A stretch of 64,000 bases of DNA from the human T2T-CHM13v2.0 reference genome, Homo sapiens: the NCBI RefSeq assembly GCF_009914755.1, contig NC_060936.1. One strand, written 5' to 3'. Of the stretch, positions 27,883 to 53,048 are shown piece after piece. The position numbers were made by a program, and so were the translations under genes. The notes under the pieces were generated by a model. The model saw only the letters and a list, made by a program, of their open reading frames with translations, was not told the origin of the DNA and made no database searches. The number at the start of each line of letters is the position of its first letter. Position 1 is the first letter of the stretch.

Positions 27883-30800
27883 TATTTATTTATTTATTTA
27901 TTATTTATTTTTTATTATACTTTAAGTTTTAGGGTACATGTGCACATTGTGCAGGTTAGTTACATATGTATACATTTGCCACGCTGGTGCGCTGCACCCA
28001 CTAACTCGTCATCTAGCATTAGGTATATCTCCCAGTGCTATCCCGACCCCCTCCCCCCACCCCACCACAGTCCCCAGAGTGTGATATTCCCCTTCCTGTC
28101 TCCATGTGATCTCATTGTTCAATTCCCACCTATGAGTGAGAATATTCGGTGTTTGGTTTTTTGTTCTTGCGATAGTTTACTGAGAATAATGATTTCCAAT
28201 TTCATCCATGTCCCTACAAAGGACATGAACTCATCATTTTTTATGGCTGCATAGTATTCCATGGTGTATATGTGCCACATTTTCTTAATCCAGTCTATCA
28301 TTGTTGGACATTTGGGTTGGTTCCAAGTCTTTGCTATTGTGAATAATGCCGCAATAAACATACGTGTGCATGTGTCTTTATAGCAGCAAGATTTATAGTC
28401 CTTTGGGTATATACCCAGTAATGGGATGGCTGGGTCAAATGGTATTTCTAGTTCTAGATCCCTGAGGAATCGCCACACTGACTTCCACAATGGTTGAACT
28501 AGTTTACAGTCCCACCAACAGTGTAAAAGTGTTCCTATTTCTCCACATCCTCTCCAGCACCTGTTGTTTCCTCACTTTTTAATGATTGCCATTCTAACTG
28601 GTGTGAGATGGTATCTCATTGTGGTTTTGATTTGCATTTCTCTGATGGCCAGTGATAATGAGCATTTTTTCATGTGTTTTTTGGCTGCATAAATGTCTTC
28701 TTTTGAGAAGAGTCTGTTCATGTCCTTCGCCCACTTTTTGATGGGGTTGTTTGTTTTTTTCTTGTAAATTTGTTTGAGTTCATTGTAGATTCTAGATATT
28801 AGCCCTTTGTCAGATGAGTAGGTTGCGAAAATTTTCTCCCATTTTGTAGGTTGCCTGTTCACTCTGATGGTAGTTTCTTTTGCTGTGCAGAAGCTCCTTA
28901 GTTTAATTAGGTCCCATTTGTCAATTTTGGCTTTTGTTGCCATTGCTGTTGGTGTTTTGGACATGAAGTCCTTGCCCATGCCTATGTCCTGAATGGTGAT
29001 GCCTAGGTTTTCTTCTAGGGTTTTTATGGTTTTAGGTCTAACGTTTAAGTCTTTAATCCATCTTGAATTGATTTTTGTATAAGGTGTAAGGAAGGGATCC
29101 AGTTTCTGCTTTCTACATATGGCTAGCCAGTTTTCCCAGCACCATTTATTAAATAGGGAATCCTTTCCCCATTGCTTGTTTTTCTCCGGTTTGTCAAAGA
29201 TCAGATAGTTGTAGATACGTGGCGTTATTTCTGAGGGCTCTGTTCTGTTCCATTGATCTATATCTCTGTTTTGGTACCAGTACTATGCTGTTTTGGTTAC
29301 TGTAGCCTTGTAGTATAGTTTGAAGTCAGGTAGTGTGATGCCTCCAGCTTTGTTCTTTTGGCTTACGATTGACTTGGCGATACGGGCTCTTTTTTGGTTC
29401 CATATGAACTTTAAAGTGGTTTTTTCCAATTCTGTGAAGAAAGTCATTGGTAGCTTGATGGGGATGGCATTGAATCTGTAAATTACCTTGGGCAGTATGG
29501 ATATTTTCACGATATTGATTCTTCCTACCCATGAGCATGGAATGTTCTTTCATTTGTTTGTATCCTCTTTTATTTCCTTGAGCAGTGGTTTGTAGTTCTC
29601 CTTGAAGAGGTCCTTCACATCCCTTGTAAGTTGGATTCCTAGCTATTTTATTCTCTTTGAAGCAATTGTGAATGGGAGTTCACTCATGATTTGGCTCTCT
29701 GTTTGTCTGTTGTTGGTGTATAGGAATGCTTATGATTTTTGCAATTGATTTTGTATCCTGAGATTTTGCTGAAGTTGCTTATCAGCTTAAGGAGATTTTG
29801 GGCTGAGACAATGGGGTTTTCTAGATATACAATCATGTCGTCTGCACACAGGGACAATTTGACTTCCTCTTTTCCTAACTGAATACCCTTTATTTCCTTC
29901 TCCCGCCTAATTGCCCTGGCCAGAACTTCCAACACTATGTTGAATAGTAGTGGTGAGAGAGGGCATCCCCGTCTTGTGCCAGTTTTCAAAGGGAATGCTT
30001 CCAGTTTTTGCCCATTCAGTATGATATTGGCTGTGGGTTTGTCATAGGTAGCTCTTATTATTTTGAAATACGTCCCATCAATACCTAATTTATTGAGAGT
30101 TTTTAGCATGAAGCGTTGTTGAATTTTGTCAAAGGCTTTTTCTGCATCTATTGAGATAATCATGTGGTTTTTGTCTTTGGCTCTGTTTATATGCTGGATT
30201 ACATTTATTGATTTGCGTATATTGAACCAGCCTTGCATCCCAGGGATGAAGCCCACTTGATCATGGTGGATAAGCTTTTTGATGTGCTGCTGGATTCGTT
30301 TTGCCAGTATTTTATTGAGGATTTTTGCATCAATGTTCATCAAGGATATTGGTCTAAAATTCTCTTTTTTGGTTGTGTCTCTGCCCGGCTTTGGTATCAG
30401 AATGATGCTGGCCTCATAAAATGAGTTAGGGAGGATTCCCTCTTTTTCTATTGATTGGAATAGTTTCAGAAGGAATGGTACCAGTTCCTCCTGGTACCTC
30501 CGGTAGAATTCGGCTGTGAATCCATCTGGTCCTGGACTCTTTTTGGTTGGTAAACTATTGATTATTGCCACAATTTCAGCTCCTGTTATTGGTCTATTCA
30601 GAGATTCAATTTCTTCCTGGATTAGTCTTTGGAGAGTGTATGTGCTGAGGAATTTATCCATTTCTTCTAGACTTTCTAGTTTATTTGCGTAGAGGTGTTT
30701 GTAGTATTCTCTGATGGTAGTTTGTATTTCTGTGGGATCGGTGGTGATATCCCCTTTATCATTTTTTATTGTGTCTATTTGATTCTTCTCTCTTTTTTTC

Positions 30801-51196: not shown

Positions 51197-53048
51197 GCAT
51201 TCCTATACACCAACAACAGACAAACAGAGAGCCAAATCATGAGTGAACTCCCATTCACAATTGCTTCAAAGAGAATAAAATAGCTAGGAATCCAACTTAC
51301 AAGGGATGTGAAGGACCTCTTCAAGGAGAACTACAAACCACTGCTCAAGGAAATAAAAGAGGATACAAACAAATGAAAGAACATTCCATGCTCATGGGTA
51401 GGAAGAATCAATATCGTGAAAATATCCATAATGCCCAAGGTAATTTACAGATTCAATGCCATCCCCATCAAGCTACCAATGACTTTCTTCACAGAATTGG
51501 AAAAAACCACTTTAAAGTTCATATGGAACCAAAAAAGAGCCCGTATCGCCAAGTCAATCGTAAGCCAAAAGAACAAAGCTGGAGGCATCACACTACCTGA
51601 CTTCAAACTATACTACAAGGCTACAGTAACCAAAACAGCATAGTACTGGTACCAAAACAGAGATATAGATCAATGGAACAGAACAGAGCCCTCAGAAATA
51701 ACGCCACGTATCTACAACTATCTGATCTTTGACAAACCGGAGAAAAACAAGCAATGGGGAAAGGATTCCCTATTTAATAAATGGTGCTGGGAAAACTGGC
51801 TAGCCATATGTAGAAAGCTGAAACTGGATCCCTTCCTTACACCTTATACAAAAATCAATTCAAGATGGATTAAAGACTTAAACGTTAGACCTAAAACCAT
51901 AAAAACCGTAGAAGAAAACCTAGGCATTACCATTCAGGACAGAGGCATGGGCAAGGACTTCATGTCTAAAACACCAAAAGCAATGGCAACAAAAGCCAAA
52001 ATTGACAAATGGGATCTAATTAAACTAAAGAGCTTCTGCACAGCAAAAGAAACTACCATCAGAGTGAGCAGGCAACCTACAAAATGGGAGAAAATTTTCG
52101 CAACCTACTCATCTGACAAAGGGCTAATATCCAGAATCTACAATGAACTCCAACAAATTTACAAGAAAAAAACAAACAACCCCATCAAAAAGTGGGCGAA
52201 GGACATGAACAGACACTTCTCAAAAGAAGACATTTATGCAGCCAAAAAACACATGAAAAAATGCTCATTATCACTGGCCATCAGAGAAATGCAAATCAAA
52301 ACCACAATGAGATACCATCTCACACCAGTTAGAATGGCAATCATTAAAAAGTGAGGAAACAACAGGTGCTGGAGATGATGTGGAGAAATAGGAACACTTT
52401 TACACTGTTGGTGGGACTGTAAACTAGTTCAACCCTTGTGGAAGTCAGTGTGGCGATTCCTCAGGGATCTAGAACTAGAAATACCATTTGACCCAGCCAT
52501 CCCATTACTGGGTATATACCCAAAGGACTATAAATCTTGCTGCTATAAAGACACATGCACACGTATGTTTATTGCGGCATTATTCACAATAGCAAAGACT
52601 TGGAACCAACCCAAATGTCCAACAATGATAGACTGGATTAAGAAAATGTGGCACATATACACCATGGAATACTATGCAGCCATAAAAAATGATGAGTTCA
52701 TGTCCTTTGTAGGGACATGGATGAAATTGGAAATCATCATTCTCAGTAAACTATCGCAAGAACAAAAAACCAAACACCGCATATTCTCACTCATAGGTGG
52801 GAATTGAACAATGAGATCACATGGACACAGGAAGGGGAACATCACACTCTGGGGACTGTTGTGGGGTGGGGGGAGGGGGGACGGGGAGGGATAGCATTGG
52901 GAGATATACCTAATGCTACATGACAAGTTAGTGGGTGCAGCACACCAGCATGGCACATGTATATGTATGTAACCTGCACAATGTGCACATGTACCCTAAA
53001 ACTTAAAGTATAATAATAATAAAATAAATAAATAAAAAAGAAAAAAAA

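What the first reader, a model, noticed from the sequence alone, without database searches (positions are those of the whole stretch)
27883..53048. Separately inserted neighbouring L1s share the same lethal mutations: local spread of 'dead' alleles, or a non-autonomous L1 lineage
Seen in sequence: B (TSD ggcatggattaatctt), C (TSD aagttaaagtc) and the D/E block (TSD aagaattatgtgaca) are distinct insertions. B, D and E all carry EN D205N (31331, 46374, 49592), D92H, I10L, ORF1 DLSAET->DLWAET and TTRPA->TTSPA. B and E also share RT FADD->CADD (51077) and five identical nonsense codons (E 51194/51281/51374/51641/52352 = B 29730/29643/29550/29283/28572). C, which has pre-Ta-type diagnostics that B and E lack, carries the same TGA (41758). 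The older L1s in the window keep KIDHIVG and LFADD, giving internal controls. Established: D205 is a catalytic EN residue, (Y/F)ADD is the RT active-site motif, and L1 proteins act mainly in cis, so a source with these lesions should not make daughters on its own. Three models (inference): (a) repeated short-range gene conversion copying inactivating alleles into younger neighbours, effectively a 'contagious' silencing of new L1s near old ones; (b) an ORF2-dead, HAL1-like lineage mobilised in trans; (c) repeat homogenisation during assembly polishing. Patchy, non-tree-like sharing favours (a): C shares aatatctagaatc with B only and aacccttgtgg with E only.
Basis: partly seen in the sequence, partly recalled or inferred. 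Interest (0 to 1): 0.9.

Follow-up and report, generated by a model that had tools for sequence, protein, structure and literature searches.

The report
Neighbouring L1 copies overwrite each other
Five separately inserted LINE-1 copies within 80 kb of human chromosome 12 share dozens of mutations, some protein-breaking, likely because neighbours copied stretches onto each other by gene conversion, a known process that also shows at other L1 clusters.

Summary
B, C and the U6-D-E block have separate target-site duplications. B and E share 54 alleles rare in 65 dispersed L1s, including D205N, F700C and five stops; D shares 10 and C shares one stop. A fifth full-length copy about 48 kb upstream of B carries 9 of the 54.

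B belongs to a small dispersed source lineage. Its six sister copies carry none of the 11 lesions, so a dead lineage mobilised in trans is refuted. B lacks that lineage's four interior markers, while E carries three of B's markers. This points to two-way exchange: a tract of at least 1.8 kb from E into B, and short patches from B into E. Sharing is patchy and fits no single tree.

It is not targeted silencing. Synonymous alleles travel too, and recipients B, C and D were 5'-truncated from birth. Stops are only mildly in excess (5 of 40, p=0.025, post hoc).

It is also general: L1s carrying the same rare allele cluster within 60 kb genome-wide (24 of 223 hits vs 2 of 113). Verdict: non-allelic gene conversion among neighbouring retrotransposons, known for Alu; a clear L1 example. 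Reads and ape orthologues were not available.

The parts
27867..32359 (-). L1 copy B, 5'-truncated inside ORF1 (body 27883-32343), 16-bp TSD; member of a small dispersed source lineage
29049..32343 (-). Part of B nearly identical to E (7 differences in 3210 bases; 8 in 3310). Its interior lacks B's own lineage markers, so it was likely overwritten by E
41073..42143 (-). L1 copy C, young, about 1 kb, short inverted 5' piece, 11-bp TSD; 3 of its 4 private substitutions match B or E alleles (41980, 41759, 41677)
44868..44973 (+). U6 copy (RNU6-36P in the supplied annotation) fused to D, inside the outer TSD 44853-44867 / 53081-53095: a U6/L1 chimeric insertion
   Evidence: sequence; TSD; class described in PMC6789731
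44974..46990 (+). L1 fragment D (mid-ORF1 to about ORF2 codon 410), no stops; shares 10 rare alleles with B and E and one with E alone
46992..53095 (+). Full-length L1 copy E with tail and outer TSD; ORF1 stop at codon 88, six ORF2 stops, D205N, F700C; likely donor of the long tract
48582..51877 (+). Part of E homogenised with B; includes a 1480-base run of complete identity (49349-50828)
14484..20654 (-). Older L1 copy A (about 90% identical to E, 13-bp TSD); control, keeps the common state at the lesion sites
2..2285 (+). Older L1 3' part Z (about 91% identical); control

Best explanation
B, C, the U6-D-E block and an upstream copy F are separate L1 insertions that share rare alleles in patches, likely because neighbours served as each other's repair templates (non-allelic gene conversion) repeatedly and in both directions. 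Each copy decayed on its own after insertion. A long tract, at least 1.8 kb and up to about 2.2 kb between B's surviving markers, likely carried E's decay alleles (F700C, four stops) into the inverted copy B about 1-2 million years ago (inferred). Shorter patches moved B's alleles into E and D, B/E alleles into or out of F, and probably one to three alleles into young C. The exchange is blind to coding and did not inactivate B, C or D, which were truncated from the start.
For: Shown: distinct TSDs and unrelated flanks. B and E share 54 rare alleles; no copy among 65 dispersed ones carries more than 4. B-E divergence is uneven: 7 of 3210 vs 19 of 1070, p=3e-7; longest identical run p=1.5e-4 by permutation, 0 of 15 control pairs under 0.05. 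Site patterns conflict with any tree: BE-not-F, FE-not-B, FD-not-BE, BC-not-E, CE-not-B. B carries markers of a dispersed lineage that E lacks (28998, 28948) but none of four interior markers seen in 3 of 3, 3 of 3, 4 of 4 and 4 of 5 sister units; E carries three of B's markers. Sisters carry 0 of 11 lesions. F shares 7 of its 58 strict-private alleles with B/D/E vs 14 of 638 in controls, p=9e-4; C 3 of 4, p=6e-5. A 71-base stretch with two rare alleles matches fully only in E, D, B, F (4 of 40 scored, 579 candidates). Five other neighbour clusters with different 3' flanks share 24 further alleles over 10 pairs vs 17 over 56 unrelated pairs. A chr2 inverted pair is 99.3% identical over 4.5 kb. 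Known for Alu neighbours (PMC6598467; PMC8230782).
Against: No reads, second haplotype or ape orthologue could be examined, so direction and dates rest on one assembly. Stops are in mild excess among locus-specific shared ORF2 alleles (5 of 40 vs 18 of 478, p=0.025; synonymous 6 of 40 vs 128 of 478, p=0.13). F-E shows no significant long run (p=0.13); its evidence is single sites. C's alleles each recur elsewhere: S1125* at 12 loci, the C+B allele in 1 of 52, the C+E allele in 8 fetched copies chosen partly for it; dropping one gives p=0.019. Part of the sharing is inherited (older-lineage states; B-lineage markers). The one unselected neighbour pair (chr18, 944 bases) shared 0 of 1 and 2 private alleles, which is uninformative. 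Genome searches score only 40 candidates each.
Confidence: 0.86

Rival explanations
1. The long B-E tract arose by inversion toggling: two crossovers between the inverted copies at different points, then an ordinary crossover in the 15-kb spacer. This is a variant route to the same homogenisation, not an alternative to local exchange.
For: B and E are head-to-head inverted repeats about 15 kb apart. Inversions between inverted repeats recur (PMC6748972 passages). 7 of 9 simple neighbour pairs elsewhere are inverted, p=0.18.
Against: Both TSD pairs are in the parental arrangement. None of the 8 chr12 rows of Table S1 in PMC10150506 lies here. It does not explain D-E, C-B or F-B sharing between same-strand copies.
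Confidence: 0.2
2. Conversion is biased, by host selection, towards spreading inactivating alleles, so old dead L1s silence new neighbours.
For: Mild excess of stops (p=0.025 strict; p=0.052 loose). Y768* reached full-length F; S1125* reached C; four chr1 neighbours share S1125*.
Against: The locus and the chr1 cluster were picked for their stops. Four of five stops lie in one tract and moved as one event. 2 of C's 3 and 2 of F's 5 shared ORF2 alleles are synonymous. B, C, D are truncated; F has its own stops and indels.
Confidence: 0.06
3. A dead, non-autonomous L1 lineage was mobilised in trans, or B is a local daughter of dead E.
For: Trans mobilisation of inactive L1s occurs rarely (PMC10883270 passage). 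B and E are sisters in both segment trees. E's tail tag weakly resembles B's TSD (0.85% of 51,180 control positions score as well).
Against: B's dispersed sisters carry 0 of 11 lesions. B has lineage markers E lacks. No dispersed copy has the lesion haplotypes among those scored. C belongs to a much younger group. E's ORF1 is broken.
Confidence: 0.03
4. The sharing is an assembly or polishing artefact.
For: Not tested with reads. A 1480-base identical run exists between B and E.
Against: B and E still differ at 7 sites within the tract; D-E sharing is interleaved with 13 differences in 1339 bases. Sharing reaches F, up to about 70 kb away, and clusters whose members differ at 2-8% of sites. 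Mis-polishing would draw on the many closer dispersed relatives of C, not on neighbours (inference).
Confidence: 0.04
5. For the single-site matches in C and F only: independent recurrent mutation or inheritance from related sources, with conversion limited to B, D and E.
For: Each single allele recurs at a low rate genome-wide. F has the same broad lineage markers as B and one B-lineage marker.
Against: 3 of 4 in C vs 4 of 65 in 27 C-like copies, p=0.003. F still shares 7 of 57 after lineage alleles are removed. The two-allele stretch is confined to the four local copies.
Confidence: 0.12

Closest known systems
Non-allelic gene conversion among neighbouring Alu elements (Aleshin and Zhi 2010, seen only as summarised in PMC6598467 and PMC8230782)
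   Same: Neighbours share non-diagnostic mutations more than distant copies; exchange runs old to young and young to old; PMC8230782 already notes old inactive elements replacing young ones.
   Different: Here the elements are 1-6 kb L1s, one tract is kilobases long, and sharing reaches about 50-70 kb against about 10 kb reported for Alu.
Concerted evolution of inverted repeats flanking recurrent human inversions (PMC6748972; PMC3961182 listing only)
   Same: Two inverted, highly similar copies about 15 kb apart kept alike by local recombination.
   Different: The repeats are independent retrotransposon insertions. No inversion is listed here in the one table checked, and same-strand copies also take part.
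U6/L1 chimeric pseudogenes (PMC6789731)
   Same: Full U6 ending in a T run, joined to a 5'-truncated L1, inside one TSD.
   Different: The L1 part is a fragment followed by a full-length L1, either a nested insertion trimmed by deletion or a three-part chimera; not resolved.
Recombinant full-length L1s and the chr11 tandem L1 array (PMC13192797)
   Same: L1 sequence reshaped after insertion; 35 recombinant calls among 2,267 loci.
   Different: That screen looks for donors from other lineages and the array is a tandem duplication; neighbour-to-neighbour sharing of private alleles is not in the passages read. Its supplements could not be read.
HAL1-like non-autonomous elements (recalled)
   Different: ORF1 of E is broken, ORF2 is full length, and no dispersed lesion-bearing family exists in the searches.

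Membership tests
Non-allelic gene conversion among neighbouring TE copies | Copies are independent insertions, not a segmental duplication | tested here: met
   Three distinct TSDs in the window, a fourth for F; unrelated flanks
Non-allelic gene conversion among neighbouring TE copies | Neighbours share non-diagnostic alleles beyond dispersed copies | tested here: met
   54 shared vs at most 4 in 65 dispersed copies; F 7 of 58 and C 3 of 4 vs 14 of 638
Non-allelic gene conversion among neighbouring TE copies | Sharing comes in tracts and conflicts with a single tree | tested here: met
   Run test p=1.5e-4 for B-E; incompatible site patterns. F-E run not significant
Non-allelic gene conversion among neighbouring TE copies | Non-reciprocal transfer with donor and recipient | tested here: met
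   B lost four interior lineage markers and E did not gain them; E and B both carry three B markers. One genome only
Non-allelic gene conversion among neighbouring TE copies | Pre-conversion state visible in orthologues or other haplotypes | not testable with these tools
   G000 has no relatives in the search tool
Non-autonomous (HAL1-like) L1 lineage | Dispersed TSD-flanked copies share the inactivating alleles | tested here: not met
   0 of 11 lesions in six sister copies; full matches only local among scored candidates
Non-autonomous (HAL1-like) L1 lineage | Intact ORF1 | tested here: not met
   E ORF1 stop at codon 88; F ORF1 stop at codon 110
Recurrent inversion between inverted repeats | Inverted haplotype or swapped TSDs | tested here: inconclusive
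   TSDs parental; absent from PMC10150506 Table S1; other call sets not seen
U6/L1 chimeric pseudogene | U6 joined to 5'-truncated sense L1, A-rich tail, one TSD | tested here: met
   Sequence, TSD; U6 identity from the supplied annotation
Named subfamilies L1PA2/L1PA3 (B, D, E, F) and pre-Ta (C) | Match to subfamily consensus diagnostics | not tested
   No consensus library on hand; names are recalled. Only relative age was tested: B/E group with older panel copies, C with the youngest

The most novel reading that the evidence does not exclude
Young L1 neighbours up to 60-70 kb apart form gene-conversion networks across the human genome, far beyond the 10-kb range reported for Alu. L1 clusters then evolve in concert: stops and active-site changes hop between copies, new insertions are drawn in within a few million years, and copy ages, source-daughter trees and locus-specific read assignment are systematically distorted. 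A full-length L1's lifespan would depend on its neighbours.
Probability: 0.45. Interest if true: 0.6.

Novelty: new member of a known kind. Interest (0 to 1): 0.4.

Why it matters
Retrotransposon copies are usually treated as independent clocks whose shared mutations mark descent. This locus shows five L1s whose shared stops and active-site changes mark proximity instead, with donor and recipient readable from lineage markers. The clustering seen elsewhere makes the rate and range of L1-to-L1 conversion directly measurable in complete genomes. It gives no support for a silencing system or a parasitic L1 family.

Tried and rejected
Dispersed dead lineage: rejected. Segmental duplication of B and E: flanks unrelated. 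I first read the older states shared by B and E at 51877, 52306 and 52525 as conversions from E into B; F and the chr2 pair have the same states, so they are inherited and I dropped that argument. CpG hot spots: only 2 of 54 shared alleles are CpG transitions by context; note that the rarity filter removes many CpG sites. Source of E's tail tag: only the self match (1 candidate). Listed inversion: none in the 8 chr12 rows of one table (32 of 37 places seen). Literature on this locus or on neighbouring L1 conversion: not found in searches; the library lacks most subscription papers, two key papers were not held, and the supplements of PMC13192797 were unreadable. D205 as a catalytic residue is recalled; two papers gave 0 hits for it. 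Rows dropped from the panel: three self loci (L001, L002, L031) and two duplicates (L047, L060); alignments under 93% identity were ignored.
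Full report
Anatomy. The self-comparison and TSD search give three insertions. B (27883-32343, minus strand) is 5'-truncated inside ORF1. C (41084-42110, minus) is about 1 kb with a short inverted 5' piece. The third is one block on the plus strand inside a single 15-bp TSD: U6, fragment D (44974-46990), then full-length E (from 46992). B and E are thus head-to-head inverted repeats about 15 kb apart. B's flanks do not resemble those of D/E, so this is not a segmental duplication. Two older L1s (A, Z; about 90%) serve as controls.

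Observation. All named changes are present. I built a panel of 65 dispersed relatives from the same assembly (three self loci and two duplicates dropped). B and E share 54 alleles that are at 10% or less in the panel; no panel copy has more than 4 of them. D has 10 of these. The lesions are absent or near absent in the panel (D205N 0 of 29; stops 0-2 of about 50). I10L is a common variant (3 of 10). The RT change is F700C; D702 is the residue mutated in RT-dead constructs (PMC11078990 passage). That D205 is catalytic is recalled. B also has a 1-base deletion before the first stop; E has an ORF1 stop at codon 88 and a sixth ORF2 stop.

No dead lineage. Long queries rank B (99-100%) and D (99%) above all dispersed copies (97-98%). 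Short queries across lesions match fully only at this locus; each search scores 40 of 150-5430 candidates, so these are not exhaustive. A stronger test came from B's unconverted part. Two B-only alleles (28998, 28948) occur together at a few dispersed loci. I fetched them: a chr2 pair and copies on chr6, 7, 8 and 9. They form a small source lineage with mostly synonymous markers. None of the six carries any of the 11 lesions at the sites it covers. The lesions therefore arose after insertion.

Direction. B has that lineage's markers at 31274, 28998, 28948 and in the 3' part, but lacks four interior ones found in 3 of 3, 3 of 3, 4 of 4 and 4 of 5 sister units (E positions 49763, 50422, 51214, 51554). 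In that interval B equals E. The simplest reading is that E overwrote B over at least 1.8 kb, bringing F700C and four of the five stops in one event. E in turn carries three of B's markers (49651, 52269, 52537), and D carries one, so short patches went the other way. B is therefore not E's daughter, nor E B's. B and E differ at 7 of 3210 bases in the homogenised part and 19 of 1070 beyond it (p=3e-7), with a 1480-base identical run. A permutation test on polymorphic columns gives p=1.5e-4, and none of 15 control pairs falls under 0.05. At 0.5-1.2e-9 per site per year (recalled range) the tract dates to 0.9-2.2 million years; this is an inference.

More partners. A full-length copy F (L071, about 48 kb upstream of B, own 16-bp TSD) appeared among the hits. 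It carries 9 of the 54 alleles. Under a strict filter it shares 7 of 58 private alleles with B/D/E, among them D92H and Y768*, against 14 of 638 for the panel (p=9e-4). A 71-base stretch with two of them matches fully only in E, D, B and F. C differs from its close relatives at four substitutions and one deletion; three substitutions match B or E (p=0.003 against 27 C-like copies, 0.019 if one is dropped). Rooted site patterns include BE-not-F, FE-not-B, FD-not-BE, BC-not-E and CE-not-B, which no single tree fits. Against this: F-E has no significant long run (p=0.13), and each of C's alleles recurs elsewhere, S1125* at 12 loci with a full match. C and F are the weaker part of the case.

Not silencing. 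Of 51 shared ORF2 alleles, 15 are synonymous, 31 missense and 5 stops; panel private alleles are 244, 453 and 27 (p=0.65 and 0.052). After removing inherited alleles it is 6, 29, 5 against 128, 332, 18 (p=0.13 and 0.025). The stop excess is nominally significant, but the locus was chosen for its stops and four moved together. The recipients B, C and D lack the 5' end and could not have been active (established L1 biology). F has stops and indels of its own. Nothing here shows an active element being killed.

General pattern. In the six short rare-allele hit lists, 24 of 223 non-local hits have another hit within 60 kb, against 2 of 113 in the three long-query lists (p=0.002; 20 of 219 vs 0 of 111 without one recurring pair). 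How the tool picks candidates is not known, which limits this test. Five such clusters, fetched, have different 3' flanks where seen (11 of 12 copies) and share 24 further alleles over 10 pairs, against 17 over 56 between-cluster pairs (the six chr1 pairs are not independent). Four chr1 neighbours all carry S1125*, the allele they were selected on, plus another rare allele. The chr2 pair has the B/E geometry, 99.3% identity over 4.5 kb, 25 of 33-34 private alleles shared and different 3' flanks; its 5' flanks were not checked.

Mechanism. Shown: independent insertion, patchy two-way sharing, confinement of lesions to neighbours. Inferred: homology-directed repair using a nearby copy as template, by intrachromosomal or sister ectopic pairing; timing; direction for C and F. 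A toggling inversion could also yield the long tract, but TSDs are parental and the 8 chr12 rows of Table S1 in PMC10150506 hold no inversion here. An assembly artefact could not be tested with reads; residual differences within tracts and sharing among copies 2-8% apart argue against it.

Known context. Neighbour homogenisation within about 10 kb is reported for Alu (passages of PMC6598467, and PMC8230782, both citing Aleshin and Zhi 2010, which was not held). PMC8230782 notes old inactive Alus replacing young ones. U6/L1 chimeras are a described class (PMC6789731 passages). PMC13192797 reports recombinant L1s and a tandem array (passages; supplements unreadable, and they may list E or F). 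PMC10883270, PMC6748972 and PMC11838501 were seen as passages. Searches found no paper on this locus or on distance-dependent conversion among L1 neighbours; older subscription papers on L1 conversion, which I recall exist, are outside the library.

Verdict. A real and unusually well polarised case of non-allelic gene conversion among L1 neighbours: a new member of a known kind. Interest 0.4. The open, testable point is the range and frequency of this exchange for L1.

Noticed in passing
L071:513-6552 (G000:C12:97624312-97630351, about 20-26 kb before the window): Full-length L1 'F' with its own 16-bp TSD; shares D92H, Y768*, the ORF1 S>W change and other rare alleles with B, D, E.
   Followed up: yes
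window 44853-53095: U6, L1 fragment D and full-length L1 E sit inside one TSD: nested insertion trimmed by deletion, or a three-part chimera. Not resolved.
   Followed up: partly
window 53047-53080: E's tail holds a short non-A tag and a second A run. The tag weakly resembles B's TSD (0.85% of control positions score as well) and starts at the same distance from the L1 end; no other copy found.
   Followed up: partly
L084, L085 (G000:C2:45064700-45087080): Head-to-head inverted L1 pair 13 kb apart, 99.3% identical over 4.5 kb with a shared 4-base deletion; same source lineage as B; a candidate for inversion polymorphism.
   Followed up: partly
L072-L075 (G000:C1:165997533-166055963): Four older L1 neighbours within 58 kb all carry S1125* and a second rare allele; three share a third.
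   Followed up: partly
L084-L089 and B: Small dispersed L1 source lineage marked by mostly synonymous alleles plus K1000T and S859A.
   Followed up: partly
hit lists: Of 9 simple neighbour pairs, 7 are inverted and 6 of those head-to-head like B/E; not significant (p=0.18).
   Followed up: no
window 46877-47378: The RefSeq enhancer in the supplied annotation covers the D/E junction and E's 5' UTR, inside an intron of PAFAH1B2P2 on the opposite strand.
   Followed up: no
window 28897 (B), A and F: One allele absent from 52 dispersed copies is shared by B, F and the older copy A; ancestral state or exchange with A, not resolved.
   Followed up: no
window 27700-27866 and 32360-32600: B's flanks look like the 3' end of an ancient L1 on the plus strand (recalled resemblance, not tested).
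   Followed up: no
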